From Candidatus Collierbacteria bacterium RIFOXYD2_FULL_45_13 (lineage in GTDB: Bacteria > Patescibacteriota > Microgenomatia > UBA1400 > MFAQ01): 64,000 nucleotides of DNA. The DNA lies in assembly GCA_001774685.1 (NCBI GenBank), contig MFAS01000001.1, positions 91,489 through 155,488 of the forward strand, read 5' to 3'. The position numbers were made by a program, and so were the translations under genes. The notes beneath the pieces are model-generated. The model was not told the DNA's origin. It worked only from the letters and a program-made list of their open reading frames with translations, and did no database searches. Of the stretch, positions 37,347-52,793 are shown piece after piece. Each line of letters begins with the position of its first letter. The stretch's first letter is position 1.

Positions 37347-37440
37347 CTACTTAAAATATAACAAATCATACATCCCAAACTCAATAGCTTGAAAGTTTGA
37401 CCCAACTGATACTTGACAAGGAGAATTTAGGTGGTAACAT

Positions 37441-37457
37441 AAGTGTACTGAGTACAC
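37441..37457. promoter_or_regulatory. Perfect 17-bp palindrome AGTGTACT-G-AGTACACT (candidate operator) downstream of a TTGACA -35 box
   Basis: Seen directly. TTGACA at 37412-37417. The palindrome lies where +1/an operator would sit, about 65 nt upstream of the PP2C start. Confidence 0.4.
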
Positions 37458-37523
37458 TAAGTAGCCTATATTGTTTAGGGCTTGGAGCTCTGTTCATTGA
37501 CAACTTAACTAGAAGGAGCACTC

Positions 37524-38261
37524 ATGCAGCCTCAGTTTACCCTCAAAACGGGAAAGGTAATTGGACGTAGCCATATTCTTGCCGGGAAAAATTGCCAAGA
37601 TTCGCTTAAGACAGCTATCACGGTAGTGGGTGTCCACCAATACCTTGTTGGTTGGATCAGTGATGGTTGCTCCGAAGGAGCACACAGCGAAATTGGTTCA
37701 AATCTAGCAACCGAATTTCTTCTGAACCGCACCCTAGATTATCTTGCCGATGATATTCCCCTAGAAATCATTCACCTCTTTCTTTTTGAAGACCTGCTCT
37801 CTTTTCTAAAATCAAACTTATTGAGCCAATCCCTAAAAACTCCTCAGAAACAGGCTCTTTACATCAAAGATTTTCTTCTCTTTACCCTTGTGGGATTTAT
37901 CATTGGCCCAAAAAACAGCACTGTAATGGCCTATGGAGACGGCTTGGTAATCATCAACGATGAAGTTTACAAAAGAGATTATCATGACGAATCCCCTTAT
38001 CCGGGATATCTGCTGATCGATCAGAAGTATCTTGACCCAAATCGGCGACCCATCGGCCAGGAATTCGATATTTACATGGTAAAAACCGCGAATATCAAGA
38101 AACTGGCGATCGGTAGCGATGCCTGGCTTCAAGAGTTTGACTTAGTTTCTCATGTCTGGGGACATAAACACCCCAACCAAGTTCAAAGAAACATGAACAT
38201 CTGGTCAGACGAAAAAAAATTGGCAGACGATGCCTCAATCATCGTTGTCGAAGCAGGCTAG
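37524..38261 (+). CDS. PP2C_2-type (PF13672-like) Ser/Thr protein phosphatase
   Basis: N-terminal GKVIGRSHILAGKNCQDS (G.SH...G..CQD signature of the vWA/kinase-associated PP2C clade). MAYGDG metal-binding Asp region. SD AAGGAG 8 nt upstream. Confidence 0.65.
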   Translation: MQPQFTLKTGKVIGRSHILAGKNCQDSLKTAITVVGVHQYLVGWISDGCSEGAHSEIGSNLATEFLLNRTLDYLADDIPLEIIHLFLFEDLLSFLKSNLLSQSLKTPQKQALYIKDFLLFTLVGFIIGPKNSTVMAYGDGLVIINDEVYKRDYHDESPYPGYLLIDQKYLDPNRRPIGQEFDIYMVKTANIKKLAIGSDAWLQEFDLVSHVWGHKHPNQVQRNMNIWSDEKKLADDASIIVVEAG

Positions 38262-38276
38262 TAGAAAGGAGGTATC

Positions 38277-40142
38277 ATGTCCATCACTGTTTTCACTCAA
38301 ACTGGTGCGCGAGTCGACCTTGATCCAAACGATGCGGTCGGTTCAGGAGGTGAAGGAACCGTGTTTCCTGATCCTACTAACCCCAATGATTTGATCAAGA
38401 TCTATGAGCATCCAGACAAAGGTCACGAAAAAAAACTAAAGGCGTTTATTGCCAAAGGTTTTTCCCTTCCCAAGTTTGTTGCTGCGCCAAAATCCCTAAA
38501 CTTTAATCGCTCTGGCGATGTCATCGGATACACCATGCCCTTCATCAAGCGGGCCAAGGCCTTTCGCGATTTAAGCAACAAGAACTTCCGCATCCGTCAG
38601 AAGATCAACAACAAGAAAGTCGTTGCTCTTCACTTAAACGACGCCAAAGTTCTCGATGCCATACATCAGCAAAAAATTGTCATCGGAGATAGAAACGATC
38701 AAAACGTTCTCTTCTCCGGAACCAATAGCTACTACATCGATTTCGACTCGGTTCAGTTCGATAACTGGCCCTGCCCGGTAGCGACCGAAAACTACCTAGA
38801 TCCGGCCCTCTACGGTCTGGATCTAACCCTCAAACCAGTGTTTCTTCCTCTTCACGACTGGTACTCCTATGCAACCATGCTGTTTAGAAGTTTGTTGCTT
38901 GTTCATCCTTACGGGGGAACTCATCCCAGAATAAGTGATTTACCAGACCGAGCATTGAAGAGAATCACCGTTTTTGATAAAGGAGTCATCTATCCGGCCG
39001 TTGGACTTCCACCTGACTTGGTTAGCGATGATCTGATGCACGTGTTTAGCAAGTACTTCAAAGATGGTTGGCGTGGTATGTTCCCACAAACGGAACTAGC
39101 CAAATTCCAGTCGGTTCTCATCGAATGCCCTTCATGCAACACCGCCTTCCCGTCAAATAAGCGGGCGTGCCCTGTTTGTAAAGAACAAAATCAGATCGTC
39201 ACTTCGGTTTCGATACCTGGTTCGCTTACTGTCAAACAATTAACAGGGATTAAAGGTCAGATACTTTACCAGCGCCTAGAGGGTGAGAATCTCATCCTGA
39301 TCACTTTGGAAAACAATCAGGCGGTTATGCACATTGTCAGCCAAAGCAATCTCTGGACCATCTCTCTCTTCCCTTACCAAACCGGGATGAGGTTCGAAGC
39401 CAGCACCAAACTACTGGCAGTCAATATTTCGGGTAGTGAACAAATCGACCTTTTCGAAATCAACTACAACGAAATTACCCAAATCGAAAGCTGTGTATCC
39501 GATACATATGCGATTACCCAAAACGCGGTATTTAGAGTCAATGGTACCCATCTCTTCCGTCTTGTCGGATCTCAACTGGTTGACACGGAAGTACTCAAGG
39601 GGACACTCCTAAACCGACCTGTTCGTCAAACCATCGAGCACCAATCATGGTTCAGTGTCAGTCCGGACACTTTTCCCGCCGTTGTCGGCTTCTACCGCGT
39701 AATGCGTCAGCAATTTTTCTGGATGCACCGCGAGGGGTTCTCGGCCGATCTTCCTCTCCCCGGCCTGGAACTGGGTGAAAGTCTTCTGGACATCACCGTC
39801 AAGTTTTCTACCAGTTCTTTTCTGATAGTCAGAAAGACCAAACTCAAAGGAGGCGAATACGTTCATTTTGACGCATTTGATAAAAAGGGCGTCAATCTGT
39901 ATTCGTCAAAAGTAGAAGTGGGGAAATTGCCTTCCGACAGAATTCACGGTCAGGCTTATGCTGGGGGAAAATTAATTTTTCCAACCGACACCGGAGCCAT
40001 TCGCTATGATCCGGCTAACGGCTCTCAAACTCAGTTTCAGGCAACCAGTAAAGTAGTAAACTCCGGCCAATCGTTATTCACCTATGCTGCCGGACTTCTG
40101 GTCGTTGACCCACGACACATTAGTTACATCACTCTCAACTAA
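38277..40142 (+). CDS. Eukaryotic-like Ser/Thr protein kinase domain + zinc ribbon + ~330-aa C-terminal beta-rich domain
   Basis: Gly-loop VGSGGEGTVF, Lys in LIKIY, catalytic loop IGDRNDQNV (D..xxN spacing as in HRDLKPEN), DFD for DFG in YIDFDS, ribbon CPSCN...CPVCK. SD AAAGGAGG. Confidence 0.7.
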   Translation: MSITVFTQTGARVDLDPNDAVGSGGEGTVFPDPTNPNDLIKIYEHPDKGHEKKLKAFIAKGFSLPKFVAAPKSLNFNRSGDVIGYTMPFIKRAKAFRDLSNKNFRIRQKINNKKVVALHLNDAKVLDAIHQQKIVIGDRNDQNVLFSGTNSYYIDFDSVQFDNWPCPVATENYLDPALYGLDLTLKPVFLPLHDWYSYATMLFRSLLLVHPYGGTHPRISDLPDRALKRITVFDKGVIYPAVGLPPDLVSDDLMHVFSKYFKDGWRGMFPQTELAKFQSVLIECPSCNTAFPSNKRACPVCKEQNQIVTSVSIPGSLTVKQLTGIKGQILYQRLEGENLILITLENNQAVMHIVSQSNLWTISLFPYQTGMRFEASTKLLAVNISGSEQIDLFEINYNEITQIESCVSDTYAITQNAVFRVNGTHLFRLVGSQLVDTEVLKGTLLNRPVRQTIEHQSWFSVSPDTFPAVVGFYRVMRQQFFWMHREGFSADLPLPGLELGESLLDITVKFSTSSFLIVRKTKLKGGEYVHFDAFDKKGVNLYSSKVEVGKLPSDRIHGQAYAGGKLIFPTDTGAIRYDPANGSQTQFQATSKVVNSGQSLFTYAAGLLVVDPRHISYITLN

Positions 40143-40157
40143 ACAAGGAGAATCCTC

Positions 40158-41087
40158 ATGACCCCTACCCTTTACTCACCTTCCGATGTTGCCAAGCTTT
40201 ACACACCTCGCAGTCAATTCGTCACCGACGGTATGAAGAATCGCACCAAACTCACCGCCTTCGAAGATAAGCGCAAGGTTGCGCTGTTGACCGTCGACGG
40301 ACAATGGGACTTTGTCAGTACAACTGGTGAACTTCCGGTTCCCGGAGCCACCGAAGATATGCAACGTCTCATAAACTTCATTTACCGTAACGTCGACCAG
40401 ATCACCAGCAACTACATGTCCATGGATGACCACCCGCCTTTTGCTATCTTTTTCCCCACCTGGTGGCGAAATCGGAACGGGGAAGCCCCGGGCAACAAAG
40501 ATTATGTTGCTATCAGCTACGCCGACATCAAAAGTGGAGCCTGGAAACCGATCATTGACCCTCTCTGGTCCACAGATTACGTCAAGAAGCTCGAAACTCA
40601 AGCCAAGAAACCGCTGATGATTTGGCCTTTCCATTGTCTCCAGGGTACACCAGGACAATCTTTGGTCGCTGCACTATCAGAAGCCATCATGTACCACTCT
40701 GCCGCACGAGGTAGTCAACCGACCAGAATCTCCAAAGGTACCAATCCTCGCACCGAACACTATGGCATCTTCAAAGCCGAAATCGAAGACCCGAAAGACG
40801 TCAGCACCCAGCTCAACACAGCTGTACTCGACGCTATTGCCAAGCACGATCTCATCTACGTCGCTGGGGAAGCCAAGAGTCATTGTGTACTCGAAACGAT
40901 GTCTCAACTTGTCGGATATTTCGGCAGGACTCAGCCTGAAACCATCAAAAAGATCCGCTTCCTCATGGACTGTACCAGCTCCGTAAAACATCCAAGCATC
41001 GATTTCGAAGCTATTGCCAATACCGAGCTCGACAAGATGGTCCAAAAAGGCGTCGTTCTCGTAAACAGCACCGACCCCATCCGCTAG
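40158..41087 (+). CDS. Isochorismatase-family cysteine hydrolase (nicotinamidase-like fold)
   Basis: VALLTVDGQWDF (catalytic Asp), LIYVAGEAKSHCVLETM (catalytic Cys). SD AAGGAG. Confidence 0.65.
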   Translation: MTPTLYSPSDVAKLYTPRSQFVTDGMKNRTKLTAFEDKRKVALLTVDGQWDFVSTTGELPVPGATEDMQRLINFIYRNVDQITSNYMSMDDHPPFAIFFPTWWRNRNGEAPGNKDYVAISYADIKSGAWKPIIDPLWSTDYVKKLETQAKKPLMIWPFHCLQGTPGQSLVAALSEAIMYHSAARGSQPTRISKGTNPRTEHYGIFKAEIEDPKDVSTQLNTAVLDAIAKHDLIYVAGEAKSHCVLETMSQLVGYFGRTQPETIKKIRFLMDCTSSVKHPSIDFEAIANTELDKMVQKGVVLVNSTDPIR

Positions 41088-41110
41088 ATCGTAAACAAAA
41101 AGGAGATCTT

Positions 41111-41827
41111 ATGACTTCAAAAAGCGTCATTACTGTAGCCAACCTCAACAATACGAGCGCCCTCGCTCAAGTTCAGCACGCAGGTGCCAGCGACCTGAAC
41201 GGCGATCAAGTCACCTTGATTCTGCGCATCCTCGATCGCACTGGATCCCTTCTCCGCTACAAGTCGGAAATGATCCAAGCCGCTCAGCTCAATGTTGATG
41301 CCCTGCGCGAATCCAAAGCTGGCGACGAGATGCTCATGTCCACCTGGACCTTCAACGCTACAGACGGCTTCACTGTAGTCGATGGCTTCGTCAAGCTCGA
41401 AGACGTTACCCCGCTTGACGACCAAAACTACGACATGCAGCCTGAAGACATGACCAACCTGTATGACACTGTCTTCACCGCTCTTACCGACCCTCTTGCC
41501 GGCATCATCGCCTACGCGGACAGCCTGCGGAAAAGTGGTATCCGCGTCAAAGTCACTGTCTTGGTCCTCACCGACGGCGAAGACAACCGCAGTCGGATTG
41601 ATCCCAGCAAAATCAAGGCTCTAACGAGCGCCAATGAAGGTTGTTACTTCTGTCTCATGGCCTTCGGCACCGGCTTTGCTCAGGAAGCGGCCCGCGACAT
41701 GGGCTTCCCCAACGTCCGCGAATACAACGCCACCAAAGGCGAACTTCGCAAGATGATGGGTGAGTTCTCCAAGTCCCAGGTTCGCGCCTCACAAAGCACC
41801 GTCGCTCCCAACGCTTTCTTTAATTAG
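41111..41827 (+). CDS. von Willebrand factor A (vWA) domain protein with a MIDAS-like motif
   Basis: LILRILDRTGSL (DxTxS MIDAS variant), VLVLTDGEDN. SD AAAGGAG. Confidence 0.65.
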   Translation: MTSKSVITVANLNNTSALAQVQHAGASDLNGDQVTLILRILDRTGSLLRYKSEMIQAAQLNVDALRESKAGDEMLMSTWTFNATDGFTVVDGFVKLEDVTPLDDQNYDMQPEDMTNLYDTVFTALTDPLAGIIAYADSLRKSGIRVKVTVLVLTDGEDNRSRIDPSKIKALTSANEGCYFCLMAFGTGFAQEAARDMGFPNVREYNATKGELRKMMGEFSKSQVRASQSTVAPNAFFN

Positions 41828-41839
41828 TCGGTTTTCTTC

Positions 41840-41866
41840 GCCCTCCCCATCCGGGAGGGCTTTTTT
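41840..41866 (+). terminator. Strong rho-independent terminator
   Basis: GCCCTCCC-catcc-GGGAGGGC + TTTTTT immediately after the vWA stop. Confidence 0.8.
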
Positions 41867-41910
41867 ATCACCCAATTTGACAGAACCAATATCCATAATT
41901 AAGATTAGTT

Positions 41911-43863: not shown

Positions 43864-43903
43864 ATGCCTAAAAAATTTTGCTCGTGGGACGATTTCGAAC
43901 TAT
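43864..43903 (+). repeat. Direct repeat copy 1 (AAATGCCTA...GCTCGTGGGACGATTTCGAACTATT)
   Basis: Matches copy 2 at 44391..44446, with 1 indel in the 21-bp core TGGGACGATT(T)TCGAACTATT. Overlaps the nucleotidyltransferase stop codon. Confidence 0.8.
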
Positions 43904-44376
43904 TTTAGATCTCTAAGTTTCTGAACAATATTCAAATCACTATTACCTCGTTTTTCGATCCTGTACCCATCAGTAGAACTGAAAGTATATGCTTTTATAA
44001 AACATTCAGGCTTAAGGGTATTAACATCGATTCCGTCAACAATAATTTTGACAACATCACTTTTTGGATCGCAAATATTATCTTCGATCAAAACACTCTT
44101 TTCTGCAAAAGCCACTTTAATCCCTTCTGGATTTACAAATTCATGTTCTTTTTCATCGGAGATCTCAAAACCATTACTTGACATCAATTCTTTCAAAAAA
44201 GACCATTTTTCTCCTGTAAACTCATCATCAACCAACAAATCAATATCGTCAAAATCTCTAAACTTCCCTAAGTAGACAGATACTCCCAATGAACCGTATA
44301 GAATAGAGTCGACATTGTTTACTCTGAGGAAACCATCAACTTTCTTGTAATCACCAAGTTTTACAGACATAGGCAA
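43900..44376 (-). CDS. Minimal nucleotidyltransferase-fold protein (Pol-beta-like NTase; ANT/MNT-like)
   Basis: YGSLGVSVYLGKFRDFDDIDLLV (G[SG]...D.D NTase motif). Confidence 0.6.
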   Translation of the reverse strand: MPMSVKLGDYKKVDGFLRVNNVDSILYGSLGVSVYLGKFRDFDDIDLLVDDEFTGEKWSFLKELMSSNGFEISDEKEHEFVNPEGIKVAFAEKSVLIEDNICDPKSDVVKIIVDGIDVNTLKPECFIKAYTFSSTDGYRIEKRGNSDLNIVQKLRDLK

Positions 44377-44390
44377 ATTTTACCAGAGTT

Positions 44391-44446
44391 CGAAAAAATG
44401 CCTATTTCAAATCAAAGCTCGCCAGATGGGACGATTTTCGAACTAT
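44391..44446 (+). repeat. Direct repeat copy 2 (AAAAAATGCCTATTT...GCTCGCCAGATGGGACGATTTTCGAACTATT)
   Basis: See copy 1. Lies 15-70 nt upstream of the nucleotidyltransferase start. Confidence 0.8.
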
Positions 44447-44477
44447 TATCTCTCAGGCGATCTAGTTACAAACAATC

Positions 44478-44759
44478 TCAACGCTTTTTCTCAGACTTCT
44501 TACTCTTTAAATAGAGCCACAATGGAGCAATAACTAGCCCGAACAAACTAAGTAAGGATAACAACCCATTATCTTCTAACGCAAAGAAATACTGTATGAC
44601 CTTTAGAAAGAAGAATGCTACTTGTATCAACACAAAACCAAACACGACAAATTTGGCAGACAAACCCCAGCTTATCTTTCCTTCCGCATAATACTGATAT
44701 AAAACCACGGGCAAAGTGGCTCCAACAATCAATAGTATTAACCAAATCATGTTATTCAT
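44478..44759 (-). CDS. Small three-TM membrane protein, hypothetical
   Basis: Hydrophobic helices. Colinear run of minus-strand genes. Confidence 0.45.
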   Translation of the reverse strand: MNNMIWLILLIVGATLPVVLYQYYAEGKISWGLSAKFVVFGFVLIQVAFFFLKVIQYFFALEDNGLLSLLSLFGLVIAPLWLYLKSKKSEKKR

Positions 44760-44774
44760 AGACTTATTTAATTA

Positions 44775-45254
44775 TTAGTTGTCTACCACTAATGTCCCTG
44801 ACCACTTATCATGCCACCCTATTGGACGATGTTTTCCATCTTCACCCTTGCTTGAAAAAAATGAGAATGGTTCAAATGGTATGAATCTAACCAAAGAACG
44901 AATAAATATTTTTCTAAATTCAGGAGAGTTCCCTTCAGCATCTACAGCTCTCGTATTTGTTAAGAGCTTACCTGGGGTTTTACCAGTCAAAGATTCAAAT
45001 AGTAGATAGTATAAGAAGAAAGCTAGATATCCCAACACCTGCTCTGAGCCGTCAACGAAATCTGCTAAGCCAAGTATTGCTAGTACAAAACCAATACAAA
45101 AGGCAAAAACCATTGCTCCCCCCATATCGATTAAATAATTAAGTAAGCGTTTGTTACTTGTTGCCGGCACAAACTCTTTTGGAGTCTCAAATCCGCAATA
45201 ACGACAATAAGAGGCATTGTTAGAAATTGATCTCCCACAGCTTTTGCAGTTCAT
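44775..45254 (-). CDS. Zinc-ribbon + RDD-family membrane protein
   Basis: N-terminal CKSCG...CRYCG ribbon. RDD-like GKTPGKLLTNTRAVD loop. Confidence 0.55.
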   Translation of the reverse strand: MNCKSCGRSISNNASYCRYCGFETPKEFVPATSNKRLLNYLIDMGGAMVFAFCIGFVLAILGLADFVDGSEQVLGYLAFFLYYLLFESLTGKTPGKLLTNTRAVDAEGNSPEFRKIFIRSLVRFIPFEPFSFFSSKGEDGKHRPIGWHDKWSGTLVVDN

Positions 45255-45281
45255 GTTTTATTTATTATTAATTTATTTAAC

Positions 45282-46016
45282 TTACCTAGTAAGCTCGAAT
45301 GAACTTATAAAATTATCAAAAGATTTCTCAAAGTTTGCATATTCACTTGAGACAATCAAAACCAAGTAAAACTTAACCTTGGGTAGATCATCTCTGACAA
45401 ATCCCATTCCCTTGACATAATAATCTTTCTCAAAAAAACCATTAAACTCTATAGCATCATAACCCTTAAATGAAGTGAGAATAGAATCGTTTATGCTATA
45501 ACCTGACTCTCCTACCATTCCATTGATTGAACCTTCTAAACCTGTCTTGTTGTCAAAATTTTCTGGAGCAATATCATAGTCCCAAGACTGAACCATATAA
45601 ACATTCTGATCATCTGGAGTCGAATAATAATATTGAGTACCACTATAAGTTACTCCATTAATAGAATCTGTTGGAATTCGTTGTGTGGTTGGATATTCTG
45701 GGAAACTGATTTTAAATCCGTGTTCTGCAGAGACAAATTTATCTGACTGATTTGACAAGTTTTGAGTTGTGGGTGTGTCTGCTCCCTCTTCTGGAACATT
45801 TCCTAATACATATAGACCGAATATGATTAAGAAAAGAACTAGTAATCCTAATAAAATATTTTTTAACAATGAAGGTTTTTTGTTTGGTACATACACCACA
45901 TCGCTTATCGAACGACCAATTCGACCTTTACTGGTCTTAGACTGTAATTTTTGACCACATTTTTCACAATATCTACTTCCGAAAGGGTTATTGCGACCAC
46001 AATATTTACACTTCAT
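45282..46016 (-). CDS. Zinc-ribbon single-TM protein with an extracytoplasmic domain, hypothetical
   Basis: CKYCG...CEKCG ribbon, TM LLGLLVLFLIIFGLYVL. Confidence 0.5.
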   Translation of the reverse strand: MKCKYCGRNNPFGSRYCEKCGQKLQSKTSKGRIGRSISDVVYVPNKKPSLLKNILLGLLVLFLIIFGLYVLGNVPEEGADTPTTQNLSNQSDKFVSAEHGFKISFPEYPTTQRIPTDSINGVTYSGTQYYYSTPDDQNVYMVQSWDYDIAPENFDNKTGLEGSINGMVGESGYSINDSILTSFKGYDAIEFNGFFEKDYYVKGMGFVRDDLPKVKFYLVLIVSSEYANFEKSFDNFISSFELTR

Positions 46017-46022
46017 AACTTT

Positions 46023-46799
46023 TTATTTATTAATAAAATTCTTGTTCCAAAAATAGGTCATCGCCTTGATTCTATTAGTAGTCAATGGATGATTTGATAA
46101 GAGCTCTCCCAGCTTCAATCCAAATCCTCCAGCTACATTAAGTTGCTGGATATACCCATCAACATTTAGTTTTTTGTATAGCTCAGCTCCAATTGAAAGT
46201 TTTATCAACGATGAAACAGCAGAATCGATATTTCTCGTAAGCACTAGTCCGCATCTGTCAGAAGTATATTCCGTTTGTCTTTCATAAAACCCCATTACAA
46301 GATTTGAAAAAGGATTATTCATTCCTAGAGGACTCGTTAAGGAAGTTATTTTTGTGTGTCCGGCTTTAAAATGACCTAACTCATGAGCAACGACAAATCT
46401 CAGTTCTTTTGTTGACAACTGTTCTACCAGAGCAGATGTCAGAACAACAGTACAAGTGGAAATACCTAATGTCCACGCATTAAGACTTGGATCCTGTTTG
46501 ATATAAATATTTGCTTTCCTAACGCCCAGCATTTTTGAATACTCAAGCAGAATCTCGAATATCTCAGGAAATTGATTACTATGCACTCTTACAGAATCTC
46601 CAAGATAGTAGAATTGTTGTAATTGAATAAACACTATTCCAATCACTATCATAAAAAGAACAAAGTATACACTTATCAGCGATAATGCCCAGCCCAAGAG
46701 AATTAACAGTGAGAAACTAATAAATAAAGAGATAAATTCCCCACTATTTCGAAACATCCAACTTTCAACATTCTTATCTACATTTTCATATTGATTCAC
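46023..46799 (-). CDS. M48-family zinc metalloprotease (HtpX-like)
   Basis: HExxH in VVAHELGHFKAGH. Two N-terminal TMs. Confidence 0.75.
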   Translation of the reverse strand: MNQYENVDKNVESWMFRNSGEFISLFISFSLLILLGWALSLISVYFVLFMIVIGIVFIQLQQFYYLGDSVRVHSNQFPEIFEILLEYSKMLGVRKANIYIKQDPSLNAWTLGISTCTVVLTSALVEQLSTKELRFVVAHELGHFKAGHTKITSLTSPLGMNNPFSNLVMGFYERQTEYTSDRCGLVLTRNIDSAVSSLIKLSIGAELYKKLNVDGYIQQLNVAGGFGLKLGELLSNHPLTTNRIKAMTYFWNKNFINK

Positions 46800-46938
46800 C
46801 TTAGCTCAATTATAAACCAAATAAATTACCAACAATCCATCAATGAATTTACTGATATAAAGGTCTCGAACTAGTCGTCTGACAAGTGATGTCATCGAGG
46901 AAGGCCCCTGTCAACACGATTAGACTATACTAAATTAC

Positions 46939-47220
46939 ATGAAGGGTATTATCAGCTTTGCTGTACTCATATTTGTTATATTTTGGATTTGGAATCACGT
47001 TATTTCACCCCCTAAATTCACTGGATTCTACTATCCGAATGCCGGTGAACTAAGTGTCTACAAACAAAGTCCCGAATTAGATTCCTTAGAAGAATGTCGA
47101 GAATGGGTTGAGGATATTAGTGGAGGACGAACAGATCAAAATTTTGATTATGAATGTGGAAAAAACTGTAGGCTGAGTGAGGCTGGTGGTATTTATATTT
47201 GTAATGAAACCTTAGAATAA
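46939..47220 (+). CDS. Small secreted Cys-containing protein, hypothetical
   Basis: N-terminal TM/signal peptide, 4 Cys. Confidence 0.4.
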   Translation: MKGIISFAVLIFVIFWIWNHVISPPKFTGFYYPNAGELSVYKQSPELDSLEECREWVEDISGGRTDQNFDYECGKNCRLSEAGGIYICNETLE

Positions 47221-47362
47221 TTCCTAAACTTCTTAACTCAACCCACATTGCTCACAAAAGGACGATCTTCGAAGTCAAAGCCAAAAGATTGGCGAGTAAA
47301 TTGCCAAAAACAGTTTAAAATACACAAAATACTATTTTGTGGTTAAATACTACTCATAAACT

Positions 47363-47596
47363 ATGATTTCAGTTACTTTCGGCGGTAAAGCAAAAAGATT
47401 AATGTATGAGGCGTTGAATAAGTCGGTTGATGGAGAGGGTTATCTCGTAGAAACTCTTAATCCGAAGCAAAGAGTCTTAACTAAAGATGGTGAGTTTATA
47501 AAACCAAATGAGGTTGGAATTGTTAGACCTGGCTCTCAAATATTTATTAAAAAAGATATTGTCTCATTAATTAAATTCGCTTCGGACTTAATTTAA
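47363..47596 (+). CDS. Hypothetical protein (77 aa)
   Basis: Stop codon abuts the start of the next gene (47597). Confidence 0.4.
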   Translation: MISVTFGGKAKRLMYEALNKSVDGEGYLVETLNPKQRVLTKDGEFIKPNEVGIVRPGSQIFIKKDIVSLIKFASDLI

Positions 47597-48481
47597 ATGG
47601 GTTTTTTAAAAGAACTTGGAGAGTTTTTGATAAAGATTTCAGAGGGCAAGCTTCAGTTCAAGGCAGATGTTCACTTCTTAGAAAATGTTAAAGATATTAA
47701 AGTAGGTGAATCCAACACGACTTATGTTGACAACAGAACTCTAATTATTGGTGACGATGCGTTGTCTAACCCTGAAGCGGTAAAAAAACTTACGCAAATA
47801 TTCCAATCTGCGATAGATCCAAAAAATAAACAAGCGTATTTTTCGGTAAATAATGGGCAGGAAAGGTTGTTGGAAGTGAAAGAGGCCGATATTTGTTCTT
47901 CAAACATAGACTTCTTTAGGGGTAAAATCTCCGACACAGATTTTATTATTCTACAAACGGCATCTGTAGTTAAAAACATGTATATCAAGGGAAACCAGCC
48001 CGAAGCAAATAGAATAAAACATGAGACTGTAGAAAGGTATGGCAAAAGAGCAAACAATATCATTAACTTATACGCTGAAAGTTACTTCGATACCACACTA
48101 AAGCCACTATATGAGATACTTTACGAAACGGGAGATGCTGACTCTGTAGATATCTTCGACAAAATGTATAGAATAATTGTTTCTGAGGAAGTTTTTACTT
48201 TATTTGTCTCAACGACACAGACAGAAGAACAGGTTTACGATAAGCTTAAGGAAAAAATAGAGGTCAACAGGTCTTACGGTGCTTACAAGATAAATATTCA
48301 TGGAATAAACAAGTCAAATGTTGACAAGATTAATAATGTTGTGGTTAAACTTATTGAAGAAAAAGTGGTTGATGGAATGCCAAATATCATTCAAAAAGGA
48401 CATGCCATCATGGCGCAAATTAAACTTAGTAAAAGAGAAGGAGATGTTGATCCATCAGATGATGTAGTTTCTATAATTTGA
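47597..48481 (+). CDS. Hypothetical protein (294 aa)
   Basis: Long ORF. No recognisable motifs. Confidence 0.5.
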   Translation: MGFLKELGEFLIKISEGKLQFKADVHFLENVKDIKVGESNTTYVDNRTLIIGDDALSNPEAVKKLTQIFQSAIDPKNKQAYFSVNNGQERLLEVKEADICSSNIDFFRGKISDTDFIILQTASVVKNMYIKGNQPEANRIKHETVERYGKRANNIINLYAESYFDTTLKPLYEILYETGDADSVDIFDKMYRIIVSEEVFTLFVSTTQTEEQVYDKLKEKIEVNRSYGAYKINIHGINKSNVDKINNVVVKLIEEKVVDGMPNIIQKGHAIMAQIKLSKREGDVDPSDDVVSII

Positions 48482-48538
48482 TTAGAATTTAGACACAAGC
48501 TGTGACATTTGCCATACCAGACTATTCCTTACATACAT

Positions 48539-49189
48539 TTAATTACAAAACCATGATCTCTCACATCTGGTAGTGCAGGTGCCAGTAAAGCTATTGCAGT
48601 TCTCCTTACAGCACATTGGTGCCTCCATGGGCTTAACTGTTGGGATTTGAATTGGCTGTTGGATTCGAACATTTGTAACGGGAGCTGGTTTGTTGCTTTG
48701 TGCGTACTCCTGCTGTTTCAGCTTGCACTCATCTTTATCCAAAGTTATGTTTACATTACCCACCCCGCAACATGTCGAATTAACACAAGCGCTTTGTTTC
48801 ATTCTCTTCGTACCCCCACCACATTTTTCATGCAAAGGGCAATCTATCAGAGGGTCTGATTGATCTATCTTGGTATTGGTTTTGCTAAGGTCAGCACTTG
48901 GGATTGAGTACAAGACAAAAAAGAACAAAACAAAGACACCGCCAGACACTCCTAGCATTTTCCAGTCTTTATTTCTAAGGACAGAGACAAAAAACAGTAA
49001 AAATCCAATTACCCCAACGAGTATGCCTAATAAGAGTAGGAGCATGTTGAAACCACTTCCGTTTAAAAAGTTTCCACTTACCGAAAGAATTGAGATATAA
49101 AAGATAGCAATTCCTGACAACCAAAGATAAAAATATTGTCTACTGTGGTTGACAGCGTGACTATTCCTTGTCGACTTACCTTTTTTCAT
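48539..49189 (-). CDS. Membrane protein with a Cys-rich C-terminal domain, hypothetical
   Basis: Two or more TMs, more than 12 Cys in the C-terminal 90 aa. Confidence 0.45.
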   Translation of the reverse strand: MKKGKSTRNSHAVNHSRQYFYLWLSGIAIFYISILSVSGNFLNGSGFNMLLLLLGILVGVIGFLLFFVSVLRNKDWKMLGVSGGVFVLFFFVLYSIPSADLSKTNTKIDQSDPLIDCPLHEKCGGGTKRMKQSACVNSTCCGVGNVNITLDKDECKLKQQEYAQSNKPAPVTNVRIQQPIQIPTVKPMEAPMCCKENCNSFTGTCTTRCERSWFCN

Positions 49190-49196
49190 CTTACAT

Positions 49197-49400
49197 TCAG
49201 TTTACACCTGTCATTTTAATGAGATCAGTCATTTTATACCTTCTATCACCTCTTATACCAAACCTGATGGCCTTCAAAATCCCTTTCTTATCCCAAAGCC
49301 TCAAGGTATTTGGGTGAACTCTCAATATTTTGCATGCCTCAGATAGGGTCACAATTTCATTTAATTTCTTTTTCATAGCCATAATTTTTACCAAGTACAA
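49197..49400 (-). CDS. Excisionase/MerR-like helix-turn-helix DNA-binding protein (HTH_17-like)
   Basis: IVTLSEACKILRVHPNTLRLWDKKGILKAIRFGIRGDRRY. Confidence 0.6.
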   Translation of the reverse strand: MYLVKIMAMKKKLNEIVTLSEACKILRVHPNTLRLWDKKGILKAIRFGIRGDRRYKMTDLIKMTGVN

Positions 49401-50107
49401 TACTTTCCAGTCAACTCGTTAAACCTGCCTCTTTGAGACGAGATGGTCTGCATTCGATAATAATCGATTGGGTCTGAAGTTTTAATTCCATACTGTAAAA
49501 GCCTTTCGGATCTGTTTTGATCATTATCTCTTCTCCAATCTTGACATTCTTTTATCTCAGCATCTGCTCCTCTACGATGACATTTCGAATCCATCTCTAG
49601 AAATGCAACTTCCTCTTCATATTTCTTAAGATCTGAATACACCTTTGTTAACTGTTCACCTGTACATATGGCGGGAACAATTTCCCCCTTTATTTCTCGT
49701 GGAACAGCTATTTGCTGGGTTGGACTAGTAATAGAAAACTTTGGAACAGGAAATTTTTGGAACTTAGAAAGAAAATACTTATCATATTCACGAATCATAT
49801 CTGGCGAGTTCATAATTCTATCAATACTCGCCTTTTCAGTTAATCCAAAAAAATTTCTCAGGACATCTTCAGTAATTGAAGTCGTTGGGTGAAGAATTTT
49901 TGTCGGTGTCACTGATGGTTTTCTGGTTGGATAGTTTGTCGGTTTATTTACAACTGGTGAATCAGGCGCAACCAATGTTACGGTTGGCATTACAATCTCT
50001 GTCGATTCCGTAGCTACTGGTGTGTATTTCTCTATTTGTTTGGGTTGATGACTAAATAAGCTTGAAATAGACACAAACATTGCAACAAAAAAGTTTCTCA
50101 TAACCAT
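49388..50107 (-). CDS. Secreted hypothetical protein
   Basis: Signal peptide MVMRNFFVAMFVSISSLFS. 13-nt overlap with the HTH gene. Confidence 0.5.
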   Translation of the reverse strand: MVMRNFFVAMFVSISSLFSHQPKQIEKYTPVATESTEIVMPTVTLVAPDSPVVNKPTNYPTRKPSVTPTKILHPTTSITEDVLRNFFGLTEKASIDRIMNSPDMIREYDKYFLSKFQKFPVPKFSITSPTQQIAVPREIKGEIVPAICTGEQLTKVYSDLKKYEEEVAFLEMDSKCHRRGADAEIKECQDWRRDNDQNRSERLLQYGIKTSDPIDYYRMQTISSQRGRFNELTGKYCTW

Positions 50108-50152
50108 ATCTTACTTGATATTACCTCACAATAAAATACAATATACCTCATC

Positions 50153-50956
50153 ATGAATATAAAGATTATTGAACCAACTTTTATGGCAAGAGAGATCAGA
50201 AAAGTTACTTCATACGAAAAGATTTTTTTAAACATACTTGAAGATGATGCTTACTTTGAGACTAAAGTATTATCTGCAAGAAAAATGCTTGGTATACCTG
50301 AAAACGGATTTGATATTCAGATAAATGTTCTATCCAAAGATTTCCTTAGTGATGTCCTAATGTCTGAAAGAGGGAAGCCACTTATGGAACTGTTAAAACA
50401 CACTGGTCTAAGTCGGCAAAAACACGAGAGACTACTTAGAAAACTGACCCAAGAAATTTGCAACGAGTATCAAATGCACCTTGGTCGATGGGAATTCCCA
50501 ATATCGCTACTAATCATATACAACAAGTTAATTATGTATACAGGAACAAATTTACCTAAAGTTAATCTTGTAAGTGGTTCTGAGGTGTCAGGAAAAACTC
50601 CTTATAGATATCAAATACCTGACAGTTTTGTCTATTTGGAAATAGAAGATATTCTCACAAAAACAGAGTTAATAAGAAGCGTAAAAAAACTTTGGCCCAA
50701 AATAAACAAAATGTTAAAAAAATACAGAAGTCCAATCACATCTGTTCCAAGAATAAAGATTCAAGATCCTACGCTTGAAATCTATAGATTTATATTCCAA
50801 CAAAGACAAAATGAAGACGCTACTTTTACTCAAATTGCTGACAAAATATCCGACAAGTACAACAAACAGTTTTCCGATAACCAAGCCAACATTTATTTCA
50901 CAAGATATCTTGAAACCATAAATAGCCTCAGAAAATCTACCACATCTCAGACATAA
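50153..50956 (+). CDS. Hypothetical protein (267 aa)
   Basis: Long ORF in an AT-rich block. Confidence 0.5.
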   Translation: MNIKIIEPTFMAREIRKVTSYEKIFLNILEDDAYFETKVLSARKMLGIPENGFDIQINVLSKDFLSDVLMSERGKPLMELLKHTGLSRQKHERLLRKLTQEICNEYQMHLGRWEFPISLLIIYNKLIMYTGTNLPKVNLVSGSEVSGKTPYRYQIPDSFVYLEIEDILTKTELIRSVKKLWPKINKMLKKYRSPITSVPRIKIQDPTLEIYRFIFQQRQNEDATFTQIADKISDKYNKQFSDNQANIYFTRYLETINSLRKSTTSQT

Positions 50957-51411
50957 CAACTGTTATGTTTATCTTTTGATGTATTAAGTTCATCCATAAA
51001 AAGTTAGATTTGCTTGTTATTAAAACAGGCAAATATGAATATAAACAATTTCTTTGTTTCAGCAGATCTTCCCTTAGTCACCACCATCTCCCTTTATTAC
51101 CCAATAGACGCCCTCGACAGATCTAGCCCTCCAAGAGTTCAATTTCTTTTTAAGAGGGATGGCGATCTCGATAAGCTGGTTGAGGCTTTCTGGAAAGACG
51201 AACTCAGAGTCAGTCCTCAAATCTTTTTCAACCAACTGAAAATTATTAAGTCTAGGATTCACAACAACTAGTATGTTGAGTCCAGCGTTGATCTCCGAAC
51301 TCCAACAGATTCTTATCTCCGACTTTGGAATCAATGCTGATTTAAAAGAAACTACCAATATCGGCAATTCTCTGGCTAAGTATTTCGAAATATTAATAAA
51401 CATAAACAAAA

Positions 51412-51612
51412 ATGAAAAACCTCAAGTCCCAACCAAAAAACGCAATTATTAAACTCCACAGAGTGCTGGAACAGGCTATCAAAGCCAAGTGCTACGACTG
51501 CCAGTGTGGGCAAAAGAAACTAGACTGCGAAATCATAGCCTGTCCACTTTACTTACTAAGACCATGGGCAAACAAGAAGTATAGGAAAAATAAACAAATT
51601 TCCCAAGGCTAA
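51412..51612 (+). CDS. Small Cys-rich (zinc-binding-like) protein, hypothetical
   Basis: CYDCQCG...C..IACP. Confidence 0.4.
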   Translation: MKNLKSQPKNAIIKLHRVLEQAIKAKCYDCQCGQKKLDCEIIACPLYLLRPWANKKYRKNKQISQG

Positions 51613-51643
51613 ATAATAAATAATTTGATTCCTAGTAATAAAT

Positions 51644-51997: not shown

Positions 51998-52002
51998 ACA
52001 CA

Positions 52003-52085: not shown

Positions 52086-52129
52086 GTACCCGAAAGTATT
52101 AGAATCTCTAATTATTTCGGATAAACAAA

Positions 52130-52744: not shown

Positions 52745-52793
52745 TTTAACAATACTTGATAATAGATACCAAATAAACTAAACTAAAATAAAT

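What the first reader, a model, noticed from the sequence alone, without database searches (positions are those of the whole stretch)
37347..41870. Compositionally distinct four-gene operon: PP2C_2 phosphatase, eukaryotic-like Ser/Thr kinase, isochorismatase-family hydrolase and vWA/MIDAS protein
What the sequence shows:
- Four colinear plus-strand ORFs with near-consensus Shine-Dalgarno sites and 15-, 15- and 23-nt intergenic gaps.
- A strong intrinsic terminator closes the unit at 41840-41866.
- By eye the block is about 50-55% GC, against roughly 40-45% for flanking genes and about 30-35% for the neighbouring AT-rich island.
- It sits between an opposite-strand alpha/beta hydrolase gene and a secreted-protein gene.

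What is known about the families:
- PF13672-type PP2C phosphatases (G.SH...G..CQD N-terminus) are documented to co-occur with Ser/Thr kinases and vWA proteins in so-called ternary signalling/conflict systems.
- The kinase here keeps the Gly-loop, catalytic Lys, HRD-like D..N spacing and a DFD motif, so it is probably catalytically active.
- It carries an extra zinc ribbon and an uncharacterised ~330-aa C-terminal domain.

What seems new:
- A fourth gene for an isochorismatase/nicotinamidase-fold cysteine hydrolase (Asp/Lys/Cys triad region conserved) is embedded between the kinase and the vWA component. This could be an effector or a metabolite-modifying component.

Interpretation:
- Taken together this looks like a horizontally acquired phospho-signalling or defence module with a non-canonical composition.
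Basis: partly seen in the sequence, partly recalled or inferred. Interest (0 to 1): 0.8.

Follow-up and report, generated by a model that had tools for sequence, protein, structure and literature searches.

The report
NAD-salvage nicotinamidase operon with kinase switch
The four genes are real and always travel together: a nicotinamide-recycling enzyme is packaged with a kinase, a phosphatase and a vWA protein behind an operator typical of the NAD regulator NrtR, and the same set also occurs in phages, so it looks like an undescribed NAD-recovery control module and not a random defence island.

Summary
The operon exists as described: four + strand genes at 37524-41827 with gaps of 15, 15 and 23 nt, AAGGAG ribosome-binding sites, a promoter and a strong terminator.

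All four domain calls hold, but only PP2C_2 passes Pfam directly.
- The "isochorismatase" is specifically a long-form nicotinamidase, with its catalytic triad and metal site invariant.
- The fourth protein is a vWA/MIDAS protein.

The composition claim is half right. Gene GC rises 43, 47, 51, 55% against a backbone of 43.5%.

New findings:
- The four genes co-occur in Patescibacteria, Chloroflexota and a Myxococcota genome in the order A-B-C-D. On 55 phage contigs they occur in the cyclically permuted order C-D-A-B.
- A 21-bp palindrome, TAGTGT-N7-ACACTA, has the published NrtR core GT-N7-AC. It lies just upstream of the cassette or of solo copies of the hydrolase: 54 sites against 0-1 in shuffles. 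The window has one, abutting the -10 hexamer.
- nrtR, pncB, nadD and nadE genes flank the cassette in several genomes.

Best reading: an ADP-ribose-inducible nicotinamide-salvage operon, controlled or assisted by a kinase/phosphatase/vWA triad of the E. coli YegI/PphC/YegL (TerY-P) type. The window shows no defence-island context. I found no description of this four-gene unit in the literature I could search.

The parts
37413..37440 (+). Sigma-70-like promoter, TTGACA-16 nt-TAACAT, with TG before the -10 hexamer
   Evidence: 10 of 12 consensus matches. This is a consensus match only. In other loci the TTGACA hexamer lies inside the operator.
37441..37459 (.). Operator-like palindrome AAGTGTACTGAGTACACTA. 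It is an NrtR-type box (family consensus TAGTGT-N7-ACACTA, core GT-N7-AC) and directly abuts the -10 hexamer.
   Evidence: It is unique in the window. The same motif lies within 260 bp upstream of the cassette or of the solo hydrolase in most related loci: 54 sites in 0.97 Mb against 0-1 in Markov shuffles. The core matches the published NrtR consensus (PMC2330246).
37524..38261 (+). Gene A: PP2C_2-family Ser/Thr phosphatase (245 aa), related to E. coli PphC
   Evidence: Pfam PF13672, E = 9.9e-12, above the cutoff. Versus PphC, E = 8e-9. The metal-binding residues D26, D47-G48, D139, D199 and D235-D236 are 97-99% conserved in 67 sequences.
38277..39116 (+). Gene B, residues 1-280: eukaryotic-like protein kinase domain, related to E. 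coli YegI
   Evidence: AlphaFold2 model, pLDDT 91.9. Foldseek hits to EGFR, ASK1, BRAF and the LRRK2 kinase. 26% identity to YegI, E = 2e-16. K41, D138, N143 and D155 are invariant. Orthologues hit PF00069 weakly.
39117..39191 (+). Gene B, residues 281-305: zinc ribbon (CxxC...CxxC)
   Evidence: C284, C287, C298 and C301 are invariant in 56 sequences. Weak DZR and HypA hits.
39225..40142 (+). Gene B, residues 317-621 plus the stop codon: all-beta C-terminal domain, a beta-propeller
   Evidence: The model shows about 28 strands at pLDDT around 90 or higher. Foldseek hits to LRRK2 (kinase plus WD40), DDB1 BPB and the clathrin N-terminal propeller. The domain is conserved full-length in the best 150 representatives.
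40158..41087 (+). Gene C: long-form nicotinamidase (PncA/Pnc1-like cysteine hydrolase, 309 aa)
   Evidence: AlphaFold2 model, pLDDT 94.5. The top 23 Foldseek PDB hits are all nicotinamidases or pyrazinamidases, best E = 2.5e-13. NCBIfam PncA E = 6e-5, far below its cutoff; PDB sequence match to Pnc1 E = 0.004. The triad D47/K193/C243 and the metal site D90/H92/H159 are invariant in 46 sequences.
41111..41827 (+). Gene D: stand-alone vWA protein with a MIDAS site (238 aa)
   Evidence: 31% identity, E = 3e-37, to the Chlorohelix orthologue, which hits PF00092 at 2e-8, above the cutoff. D42, S46, T115 and D155 are 98-100% conserved in 64 sequences, as is a C-terminal tail with S220, S222, S227 and F236. 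Matches phrog_7371, E = 3e-12.
41840..41870 (+). Intrinsic terminator
   Evidence: Stem GCCCTCCC/GGGAGGGC with a 5-nt loop, followed by TTTTTT.

Best explanation
The locus is one transcription unit (promoter, operator, four genes, terminator). It couples a nicotinamidase to a Ser/Thr phospho-switch.

**Shown**
- Gene C has the fold, catalytic triad and metal site of nicotinamidases, the enzymes that turn nicotinamide (the leaving group of every NAD-consuming reaction) into nicotinate for the Preiss-Handler pathway.
- All four are inherited as a set in at least three bacterial phyla and in phages.
- A conserved 21-bp palindrome of the NrtR type precedes the unit.

**Inferred**
- An NrtR-family repressor, encoded elsewhere in this genome and adjacent to the cassette in others, sits on the operator that abuts the -10 hexamer.
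- It is released when ADP-ribose accumulates, that is, when NAD is being cleaved.
- The operon then supplies nicotinamidase to recycle nicotinamide.
- The kinase senses a signal or partner through its beta-propeller and phosphorylates the vWA protein (its conserved serine-rich C-terminal tail is the best candidate) and/or the nicotinamidase. The PP2C phosphatase resets this.
- The vWA protein acts as the Mg-dependent peptide-binding adaptor that gates or localises the enzyme.

Phages carry the same set without the operator. They plausibly use it to rebuild NAD from the nicotinamide released by host NADase immunity.
For: **Identities.**

**Unit character**
- 20 complete and 6 truncated or partial cassettes among 80 species-level genome loci of the hydrolase, always in the order A-B-C-D.
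- Further A-B-C-D copies in a Kuenenbacteria locus and another genome.
- 55 C-D-A-B and 8 A-B-C-D copies among 81 IMG/VR loci. A cyclic permutation that keeps all four genes argues for function and against accident.
- Flanking genes differ between lineages.

**NAD link**
- Operator statistics and positions. The operator shares the 21-bp symmetry and GT-N7-AC core of NrtR sites, and ADP-ribose releases NrtR from DNA (PMC2330246; PMC6800001).
- An nrtR gene (NUDIX plus NrtR winged helix) lies directly upstream in L020, L030, L031, L041 and L057, about 3 kb upstream in L090, and upstream in L095 and L153.
- L020 reads pncB-nrtR-A-B-C-D on one strand.
- In L088 the cassette lies between pncA-nadD-nadE and pncB plus an NAD kinase gene, and the same operator also precedes pncA-nadD-nadE.
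- Solo copies of the hydrolase carry the same operator. One sits directly before an NAPRTase gene (L080) and five sit after a QRPTase-like gene.
- Variants insert an ADP-ribosylglycohydrolase between A and B.

**Closest characterised relative.** YegI is a biochemically active Ser/Thr kinase and is encoded next to the PP2C-like phosphatase PphC (bioRxiv 10.1101/819920; gene order).
Against: - No nrtR gene is present in the 64-kb window, so operator occupancy here is inferred.
- The assignment of the operator to NrtR rests on its form and on gene adjacency, not on binding data.
- One close relative (L004) has the cassette but no recognisable operator.
- Nothing shows which protein the kinase phosphorylates, or that phosphorylation affects the hydrolase.
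- 54 of 80 genomic loci have the hydrolase without the triad within 7 kb, so the enzyme works without the triad in many organisms.
- Substrate specificity is inferred from the fold and active-site residues only. The protein carries a family-specific stretch (residues about 95-150, with the invariant W102-W103) and N-terminal extension that classical PncA sequences lack.
- The elevated GC3 of genes C and D is unexplained.
Confidence: 0.55

Rival explanations
1. It is a stand-alone anti-phage defence system of the TerY-P kind. The vWA/PP2C/kinase triad senses infection. The nicotinamidase is the output: for example, it removes nicotinamide so that phage NadV-type NAD reconstitution is starved, while the host's own Preiss-Handler route is fed.
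For: - TerY-P-like modules have been reported to act as stand-alone antiphage systems, and TerY-P triads accompany restriction systems (PMC11090510).
- The kinase has weak hits to the defence kinases PD-T4-6, Stk2, mad6 and MkoA.
- The cassette sits at different chromosomal sites in related genomes and is patchily distributed.
- Phages salvage nicotinamide through NadV (PMC9503650).
Against: - No toxic effector is present.
- The PADLOC TerY model does not match any cassette protein.
- The flanks in the window and most loci are housekeeping genes, not defence genes.
- The operator and neighbouring genes tie the cassette to NAD biosynthesis.
- The same four genes are carried by many phages, which fits badly with a purely host-protective role.
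Confidence: 0.17
2. It is primarily a phage or mobile-element counter-defence module, a third route of NAD reconstitution. The bacterial copies are domesticated or prophage-derived.
For: - 63 of 81 IMG/VR loci carry the complete set, beside RecT, SbcC-like, PAPS reductase and Ro-like genes and tRNA arrays.
- A Myoviridae protein shares the kinase's full architecture, E = 4.6e-22.
- Genes C and D have foreign-looking GC3 in the window.
Against: - The hydrolase tree tracks bacterial taxonomy.
- The bacterial cassettes, unlike the phage ones, carry the host NrtR operator and lie in NAD gene clusters.
- Window flanks are syntenic in close relatives and show no phage genes.
Confidence: 0.12
3. The hydrolase does not act on free nicotinamide, and the kinase does not act on protein. 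Together they would process a different NAD- or ADP-ribose-derived small molecule, or a modified protein side chain.
For: - The family carries a distinct stretch (residues about 95-150) and N-terminal extension, and falls below the Pfam Isochorismatase threshold.
- The kinase lacks a conserved alpha-C glutamate and resembles atypical kinases such as Bud32, Kdo kinase and YrbL at weak level.
- In some variants an ADP-ribosylglycohydrolase joins the set.
Against: - The nicotinamidase-specific metal site and triad are invariant, and the best structural matches are exclusively nicotinamidases.
- Solo copies pair with nicotinate phosphoribosyltransferase genes.
- The kinase's nearest characterised homologue, YegI, is a protein Ser/Thr kinase and is encoded next to the PP2C-like phosphatase PphC.
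Confidence: 0.1
4. It is a chance juxtaposition: a housekeeping pncA gene happens to lie inside an unrelated signalling triad.
For: The hydrolase occurs alone in 54 of 80 genomic loci.
Against: - The four genes stay together across phyla, in two gene orders and in phages, with 15-23 nt gaps and a single promoter and terminator here.
- Every full-length kinase context I inspected has a nicotinamidase or an ADP-ribosylglycohydrolase beside the kinase.
Confidence: 0.03

Closest known systems
E. coli YegL-PphC(YegK)-YegI module (vWA protein, PP2C-like phosphatase, eukaryotic-like Ser/Thr kinase)
   Same: - The kinase N-terminal 310 residues are homologous to YegI (26% identity, E = 2e-16).
- The phosphatase is homologous to PphC (E = 8e-9).
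- A stand-alone vWA gene sits in the same operon.
- The phage order C-D-A-B equals the YegL-PphC-YegI order (vWA, PP2C, kinase) with a nicotinamidase gene in front.
   Different: - No nicotinamidase gene lies beside the E. coli operon in the region inspected.
- YegI is reported to be a two-pass membrane protein (10.1101/819920). The window kinase instead has a zinc ribbon and a soluble beta-propeller.
- The window kinase keeps the motif VI Asn that YegI lacks.
- The vWA protein shows no significant pairwise similarity to YegL.
- No NrtR operator is known to me for yegLKI.
TerY-P triad (TerY-like vWA, PP2C, and a Ser/Thr kinase fused to a C-terminal zinc ribbon) and the TerY-P-like antiphage modules
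   Same: The same three protein types, including the zinc ribbon directly after the kinase domain (PMC11090510).
   Different: - There is a fourth, enzymatic gene.
- A beta-propeller follows the zinc ribbon, where the defence versions have nothing or an OB fold.
- The PADLOC TerY model does not match.
- There is no link to tellurite-resistance, McrBC or CoCoNuT genes. The link is to NAD genes instead.
NrtR regulons of NAD salvage (nrtR-pncA-pncB and similar; Rodionov et al. 2008, PMC2330246)
   Same: - A 21-bp palindromic operator with a GT-N7-AC core at the promoter.
- A nicotinamidase as the regulated gene.
- nrtR and pncB are adjacent in some genomes.
   Different: - The published regulons listed in that paper contain no kinase, PP2C or vWA genes.
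- The nicotinamidase here is a roughly 310-aa long form, not the 180-215-aa classical PncA.
ARG-centric, Nudix/WYL-regulated systems predicted to reverse viral ADP-ribosylation (Iyer et al. 2022, PMC9503650, section 3.8)
   Same: - A Nudix-HTH repressor predicted to sense ADP-ribose.
- A vWA 'chaperone' and a phosphatase in the operon.
- The ARH-containing variants of the present cassette (L089, L146, L170) overlap this theme.
   Different: - Those systems centre on an ADP-ribosylglycohydrolase with rhodanese-type, calcineurin-like, HD or HAD phosphatases.
- No kinase, PP2C or nicotinamidase is described in them.
Actinobacterial kinase (zinc ribbon plus beta-strand-rich domain) - PP2C - vWA neighbourhoods linked to GAP1-N2 GTPases (Kaur et al. 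2020, PMC7159879)
   Same: [quoted passage not shown]
   Different: - That theme is tied to a GAP1-N2 GTPase and restricted to actinobacteria.
- No nicotinamidase is mentioned.
- No GTPase lies near the cassette here.

Membership tests
PP2C_2 (PF13672) phosphatases | Match to the Pfam model above the gathering score | tested here: met
   45.3 bits against a cutoff of 24, E = 9.9e-12.
PP2C_2 (PF13672) phosphatases | Metal-coordinating aspartates present | tested here: met
   D26, D47, D139, D199, D235 and D236 are 97-99% conserved in 67 cassette phosphatases.
Eukaryotic-like Ser/Thr protein kinases (YegI branch) | Bilobal kinase fold | tested here: met
   AlphaFold2 model, pLDDT 91.9. Foldseek matches to many solved protein kinases.
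Eukaryotic-like Ser/Thr protein kinases (YegI branch) | Catalytic residues: Gly-loop, VAIK Lys, catalytic Asp and Asn, DFG Asp | tested here: met
   G22-G25, K41, D138, N143 and D155 are invariant or nearly so in 56 sequences. No conserved alpha-C Glu, as in YegI.
Eukaryotic-like Ser/Thr protein kinases (YegI branch) | Match to Pfam Pkinase above threshold | tested here: not met
   No PF00069 hit for the window protein. Orthologues score 25-32 bits around the 31.7-bit cutoff.
Eukaryotic-like Ser/Thr protein kinases (YegI branch) | Sequence homology to YegI | tested here: met
   BLASTP E = 2e-16 over residues 1-308.
Eukaryotic-like Ser/Thr protein kinases (YegI branch) | YegI-type two-pass membrane anchor | tested here: not met
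   The C-terminal half is an all-beta propeller with no helical segment. YegI topology is from 10.1101/819920.
Nicotinamidase (PncA/Pnc1) within the isochorismatase-like cysteine hydrolases | Asp-Lys-Cys catalytic triad | tested here: met
   D47, K193 and C243 are invariant in 46 sequences. They align with the Pnc1 and P. horikoshii PncA motifs.
Nicotinamidase (PncA/Pnc1) within the isochorismatase-like cysteine hydrolases | Asp/His/His metal-binding site that distinguishes nicotinamidases | tested here: met
   D90, H92 and H159 (the WPxH motif) are invariant. Equating these with the metal ligands rests on my own knowledge of Pnc1/PncA structures.
Nicotinamidase (PncA/Pnc1) within the isochorismatase-like cysteine hydrolases | Fold | tested here: met
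   The top 23 Foldseek PDB hits are all nicotinamidases or pyrazinamidases, TM-score to target 0.73-0.81 for the classical-length enzymes (0.50 for the 327-residue Drosophila enzyme).
Nicotinamidase (PncA/Pnc1) within the isochorismatase-like cysteine hydrolases | Match to Pfam Isochorismatase or NCBIfam PncA above threshold | tested here: not met
   No Pfam hit. NCBIfam PRK11609 scores 22.9 bits against a cutoff of 174. A few homologues reach 26.7 bits against the Pfam cutoff of 27.
Nicotinamidase (PncA/Pnc1) within the isochorismatase-like cysteine hydrolases | Hydrolysis of nicotinamide to nicotinate | not testable with these tools
   Needs an enzyme assay.
vWA / MIDAS proteins | vWA domain | tested here: met
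   Transitive: E = 3e-37 to the Chlorohelix orthologue, which hits PF00092 at 35.1 bits against a cutoff of 23.8. There is no direct Pfam hit.
vWA / MIDAS proteins | MIDAS residues DxSxS...T...D | tested here: met
   D42-R-T44-G-S46, T115 and D155. D42, S46, T115 and D155 are 98-100% conserved. The middle Ser is Thr in the window.
TerY-P triad / PADLOC TerY-P defence system | vWA, PP2C and a kinase with a C-terminal zinc ribbon in one operon | tested here: met
   Definition from PMC11090510.
TerY-P triad / PADLOC TerY-P defence system | Three-gene composition | tested here: not met
   A fourth gene, the nicotinamidase, is conserved in the unit.
TerY-P triad / PADLOC TerY-P defence system | Proteins match the PADLOC TerY-P models | tested here: not met
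   No TerY hits for the window, Chlorohelix or phage copies, only weak generic kinase-model hits (PD-T4-6 for the window and Chlorohelix kinases; PD-T4-6, Stk2, mad6 and MkoA for the phage kinase). E. coli YegL itself scores only E = 0.0097.
TerY-P triad / PADLOC TerY-P defence system | Protects against phage | not testable with these tools
   Needs infection assays.
NrtR regulon | 21-bp palindromic site with a GT-N7-AC core in the promoter region | tested here: met
   Site at 37441-37459, directly after the -10 hexamer. Family-wide enrichment. Definition from PMC2330246.
NrtR regulon | nrtR gene in the same genome | tested here: inconclusive
   None in the 64-kb window at E <= 1e-4. nrtR is adjacent to or near the cassette in L020, L030, L031, L041 (a Microgenomates genome), L057, L090, L095 and L153.
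NrtR regulon | NrtR binds the site and ADP-ribose releases it | not testable with these tools
   Needs a gel-shift assay.

The most novel reading that the evidence does not exclude
The nicotinamidase plus vWA/PP2C/kinase set is a previously unrecognised, widespread four-component system. It places nicotinamide recycling under a Ser/Thr phosphorylation switch.
- In bacteria, ADP-ribose induces it through NrtR whenever NAD is being cleaved, for example by NADase immunity, toxins or ADP-ribosylation.
- Phages have captured it as a third kind of NAD-reconstitution or counter-defence pathway, alongside the NadV-based ones.

This would also give the first physiological role to the YegI/PphC/YegL (TerY-P) type of triad.
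Probability: 0.3. Interest if true: 0.8.

Novelty: new variant of a known kind. Interest (0 to 1): 0.62.

Why it matters
**A missing output for a known triad.** The vWA/PP2C/kinase triad (TerY-P, E. coli YegLKI) is widespread. It is linked to stress and phage defence, but the sources read here name no physiological output for it. Here it is locked to an enzyme with a clear reaction and to a regulator with a known ligand. That makes a concrete hypothesis testable: phospho-control of nicotinamide salvage in response to NAD cleavage.

**NAD in phage-host conflict.** NAD depletion and reconstitution are central to phage-bacterium conflict. A nicotinamidase-based module carried by many gut phages would add a new route to that picture.

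**Reduced-genome bacteria.** The cassette lies in a Patescibacteria (Ca. Collierbacteria) genome. If such reduced genomes depend on precursor salvage for NAD, which I did not test, a regulated salvage operon would bear on how the organism keeps its NAD pool.

**Annotation.** Three of the four proteins escape Pfam. The roughly 310-aa nicotinamidase family, found in at least 589 species genomes, is mostly labelled hypothetical.

Tried and rejected
- **Family scans.** Pfam, NCBIfam, PADLOC and PHROGs scans of the four proteins gave significant hits only for PP2C_2, phrog_37888 (kinase) and phrog_7371 (vWA).
- **PDB sequence search with the vWA protein.** It gave only a spurious match to a peroxidase-related protein. 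Rejected.
- **Metagenome scan.** I therefore could not measure how often the kinase occurs without the hydrolase. I sampled distant kinases by look-up instead.
- **AFDB fold library.** It was unavailable.
- **Plasmid search.** It found only distant YegI-like kinases, with no cassette on plasmids.
- **INPHARED phage search.** It found a single 6.5-kb human-gut phage fragment and three distant jumbo-phage matches.
- **Solo-hydrolase neighbourhoods.** I clustered them looking for one conserved partner. There is none. FtsH, a DsbA-like gene, a QRPTase-like gene and a nucleoside phosphorylase each appear in only 5-7 loci.
- **Recently acquired genomic island.** Considered and rejected, because both flanks are syntenic in L008, L010 and L011.
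- **Palindrome as a chance match.** Considered and rejected.
- **NrtR supplementary site tables.** Rodionov 2008's tables are not held, so I could not compare the motif with the published Chloroflexi logo.
- **Literature.** Searches for nicotinamidase or isochorismatase together with PP2C, vWA or TerY found no description of this unit. The library lacks most subscription papers, including Anantharaman et al. 2012.

Full report
**1. What is in the sequence**

Four + strand ORFs occupy 37524-38261 (A, 245 aa), 38277-40142 (B, 621 aa), 40158-41087 (C, 309 aa) and 41111-41827 (D, 238 aa). The gaps are 15, 15 and 23 nt. Each ORF is preceded by AAGGAG or AAGGAGG.

A TTGACA-16-TAACAT promoter-like site lies at 37413-37440. 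A strong hairpin plus T-run lies at 41840-41870. The finding's start coordinate, 37347, is only the end of the upstream minus-strand gene.

Gene GC climbs along the operon: 43.4, 46.8, 50.9 and 55.0%, with GC3 of 45, 51, 59 and 68%. Other genes outside the AT-rich block average 43.5 +/- 2.6% (1-kb profile). So "50-55% GC" holds only for genes C and D. Gene A is indistinguishable from the backbone.

Homologue names place the window in Candidatus Collierbacteria (Patescibacteria).

**2. What the proteins are**

*Protein A.* It matches Pfam PP2C_2 above threshold and keeps all the metal-binding aspartates.

*Protein B.* It has no significant Pfam hit. A 56-sequence alignment has an invariant Gly-loop, K41, D138, N143, D155 and four zinc-ribbon cysteines. 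The AlphaFold2 model (pLDDT 91.9) shows a kinase fold at residues 1-280, a zinc ribbon, a short disordered linker and an all-beta domain at residues 317-620. Foldseek matches solved protein kinases and beta-propellers, and it matches LRRK2 across both parts.

*Protein C.* It has no Pfam hit either. It aligns weakly with yeast Pnc1 and archaeal PncA at exactly the catalytic motifs. In 46 homologues the Asp-Lys-Cys triad (D47, K193, C243) and the Asp-His-His site (D90, H92, H159) are invariant. Its model (pLDDT 94.5) finds only nicotinamidases or pyrazinamidases among the top 23 PDB matches. It is therefore a long-form nicotinamidase. "Isochorismatase family" is correct but too broad.

*Protein D.* It has no direct Pfam hit. 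It is 31% identical (E = 3e-37) to a Chlorohelix orthologue that passes PF00092. Its MIDAS residues D42, S46, T115 and D155 are 98-100% conserved. The window has Thr at the middle Ser position.

**3. The four genes are one evolutionary unit**

The hydrolase family is large: at least 948 clusters and at least 589 species genomes. I took 80 species-level loci and searched them with profiles of all four proteins.
- 20 loci have the complete A-B-C-D cassette.
- 6 more have incomplete sets; most are cut by contig ends.
- 54 have the hydrolase alone.

Cassette-bearing genomes include all the Patescibacteria sampled, the Chloroflexia, a Polyangiaceae genome, and the cultured Ktedonospora formicarum. 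The hydrolase tree follows taxonomy, and cassette presence is patchy on it.

Distant kinase homologues were checked individually. Two again sit in A-B-C-D cassettes (L088 in Kuenenbacteria, and L090). One sits in a variant, PP2C - ADP-ribosylglycohydrolase - kinase.

A profile search of 1.84 billion representatives finds 2117 relatives of the kinase at E <= 1e-30. The best 150 are nearly all full-length, kinase plus propeller.

Most telling, 81 IMG/VR loci of the hydrolase include 55 with the cyclically permuted order C-D-A-B and 8 with A-B-C-D. These viral contigs show phage features:
- tRNA arrays;
- a Ro-like phrog_850 gene;
- RecT, SbcC-like, PAPS-reductase and NinI-like genes.

A Myoviridae protein shares the kinase's whole architecture. 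A set that survives both a change of gene order and a change of replicon type is a functional unit.

**4. The NAD connection**

Aligning the upstream regions by eye revealed a palindrome, TAGTGT-N7-ACACTA. With at most one mismatch it occurs 54 times in 0.97 Mb of the cellular loci, against 0-1 in Markov shuffles. All but a few of those sites lie within 260 bp upstream of the first cassette gene or of the solo hydrolase gene. Two of the remaining sites, in L088, precede other operons: one precedes pncA-nadD-nadE and the other precedes the gene just upstream of the cassette.

The window has one copy, AAGTGTACTGAGTACACTA, at 37441-37459. It is unique in the 64 kb and directly abuts the -10 hexamer. 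In other loci the -35 TTGACA lies inside the palindrome. Both are typical repressor geometries.

The motif has the 21-bp symmetry and GT-N7-AC core reported for NrtR operators. NrtR is released from DNA by ADP-ribose (PMC2330246; PMC6800001).

The neighbouring genes agree with this.
- An NrtR homologue (NUDIX plus NrtR winged helix) lies directly upstream of the cassette in L020, L030, L031, L041 and L057, about 3 kb upstream in L090, and upstream in L095 and L153.
- L020 reads pncB-nrtR-A-B-C-D.
- In L088 the cassette lies between pncA-nadD-nadE and pncB plus an NAD kinase gene.
- nadE follows the cassette in L030 and L031.
- Solo hydrolases sit directly before an NAPRTase gene (L080) or after a QRPTase-like gene in five loci.

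The window itself contains no nrtR. Its flanks are ordinary genes: a Crp-like regulator, BacA, a VTT/DedA protein and an alpha/beta hydrolase.

**5. Mechanism proposed**

Shown: the gene identities, the unit character and the operator.

Inferred, step by step:
- An NrtR-type repressor holds the operon off.
- ADP-ribose, produced when NAD is cleaved, releases the repressor.
- The nicotinamidase converts the released nicotinamide to nicotinate for PncB, NadD and NadE.
- The kinase, through its propeller, together with the PP2C phosphatase forms a reversible switch. It acts on the vWA protein and/or the enzyme. The vWA protein's near-invariant S220, S222, S227 and F236 tail is a candidate target.

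The ARH-containing variants suggest the kinase/phosphatase pair is generally tied to clearing the two products of NAD-consuming reactions, nicotinamide and ADP-ribose adducts.

The phage copies lack the operator. A plausible use is rebuilding NAD after host NADase immunity, by analogy with the phage NadV/NadM/NadR systems (PMC9503650).

I put about 0.9 on the protein identities, about 0.8 on membership of an NrtR-type NAD regulon, and about 0.45 on the phospho-control step. Overall confidence is 0.55.

**6. Comparison with known systems**

The nearest characterised relative is the E. coli yegL-pphC-yegI operon, which encodes a vWA protein, a PP2C phosphatase and a kinase. YegI is a demonstrated Ser/Thr kinase (10.1101/819920). 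This is the TerY-P type of triad, whose kinase carries a C-terminal zinc ribbon (PMC11090510). [quoted passage not shown]

The window differs in four ways:
- the conserved nicotinamidase gene;
- the propeller;
- the NrtR-type control;
- the lack of matches to the PADLOC TerY model.

Iyer et al. 2022 describe Nudix/WYL-regulated ADP-ribosylglycohydrolase systems with phosphatases and vWA chaperones. They mention no kinase, PP2C or nicotinamidase. The NrtR regulons listed by Rodionov et al. contain pncA and pncB but no signalling triad.

I found no paper describing the four-gene unit. The searchable library omits many subscription papers.

**7.

The families are right, and the insight that the hydrolase belongs to the unit is right. 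"Horizontally acquired defence module" is not what the context shows. The closest relatives (L008, L010, L011) are syntenic on both sides, while L004, L012 and L014 carry the cassette elsewhere. The regulatory and neighbourhood evidence points to NAD homeostasis. The high GC3 of genes C and D remains unexplained. It may reflect old transfer from higher-GC Chloroflexota-like donors, or selection.

**8. Novelty and score**

This is a new variant of a known kind: a TerY-P/YegLKI-type triad locked to a nicotinamidase and to NrtR control, also carried by phages. Interest is 0.62. The unit is widespread, apparently undescribed, gives a testable output for an orphan signalling triad, and touches the NAD axis of phage-host conflict. 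Its parts are individually familiar, and the mechanism beyond the enzyme and the operator is inferred.

Noticed in passing
window 54401-54705 (-): Rfam finds a complete group I intron (RF00028, 72.8 bits, E = 1.5e-16). Neither Rfam nor ARAGORN detects an rRNA or tRNA gene around it. It lies at the edge of the AT-rich block.
   Followed up: no
window 43900-54000: An AT-rich block with 32-38% GC and GC3 of 25-33% in most of its genes, against a backbone of about 43.5%. It encodes small zinc-ribbon/RDD and unannotated proteins. This block, not the four-gene operon, is the window's clearest compositional island.
   Followed up: partly
window 62000-64000: GC skew is strongly negative over 1-62 kb and flips to positive at about 62 kb. 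The flip lies beside a cluster of six tRNA genes, four of them tRNA-Ser. One, at 62363-62449, has the unusual anticodon ACT. The cumulative-skew minimum suggests a replication origin or a strand switch.
   Followed up: no
L104 1362-3304 and 11147-11364; L104 4397-5848: In gut-phage contigs the C-D-A-B cassette lies between tRNA arrays. It sits directly after a Ro-like phrog_850 protein with DUF2828, DUF7788 and VWA_2 domains, so there is a second vWA gene next to the unit.
   Followed up: partly
L089 4098-7920; L146 5998-11301; L170: A variant cassette has an ADP-ribosylglycohydrolase gene between the PP2C and kinase genes. L089 keeps the operator but lacks the hydrolase and vWA genes.
   Followed up: partly
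L013 3355-4221: A second, diverged copy of the nicotinamidase (E = 5e-74) lies directly upstream of the A-B-C-D cassette in one genome that groups with the Collierbacteria in the hydrolase tree (its record is labelled 'uncultured Pseudomonadales').
   Followed up: no
window 41768-41818 (protein D residues 220-236): The vWA protein's C-terminal tail has near-invariant S220, S222, S227 and F236 across 64 cellular and phage sequences. These are candidate phosphorylation or docking sites.
   Followed up: no
L004 7100-7363: A close Collierbacteria relative (84% identical hydrolase) carries the cassette at a different chromosomal site, between SIMPL and HAD genes. It has no recognisable TAGTGT-N7-ACACTA operator.
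   Followed up: partly
L008, L009, L011, L013, L020, L057 (record titles): Several public MAGs carrying Collierbacteria-like or Chloroflexota-like cassettes are labelled 'uncultured Pseudomonadales' or 'Gammaproteobacteria'. These are probably taxonomic mislabels in the TPA assemblies.
   Followed up: no
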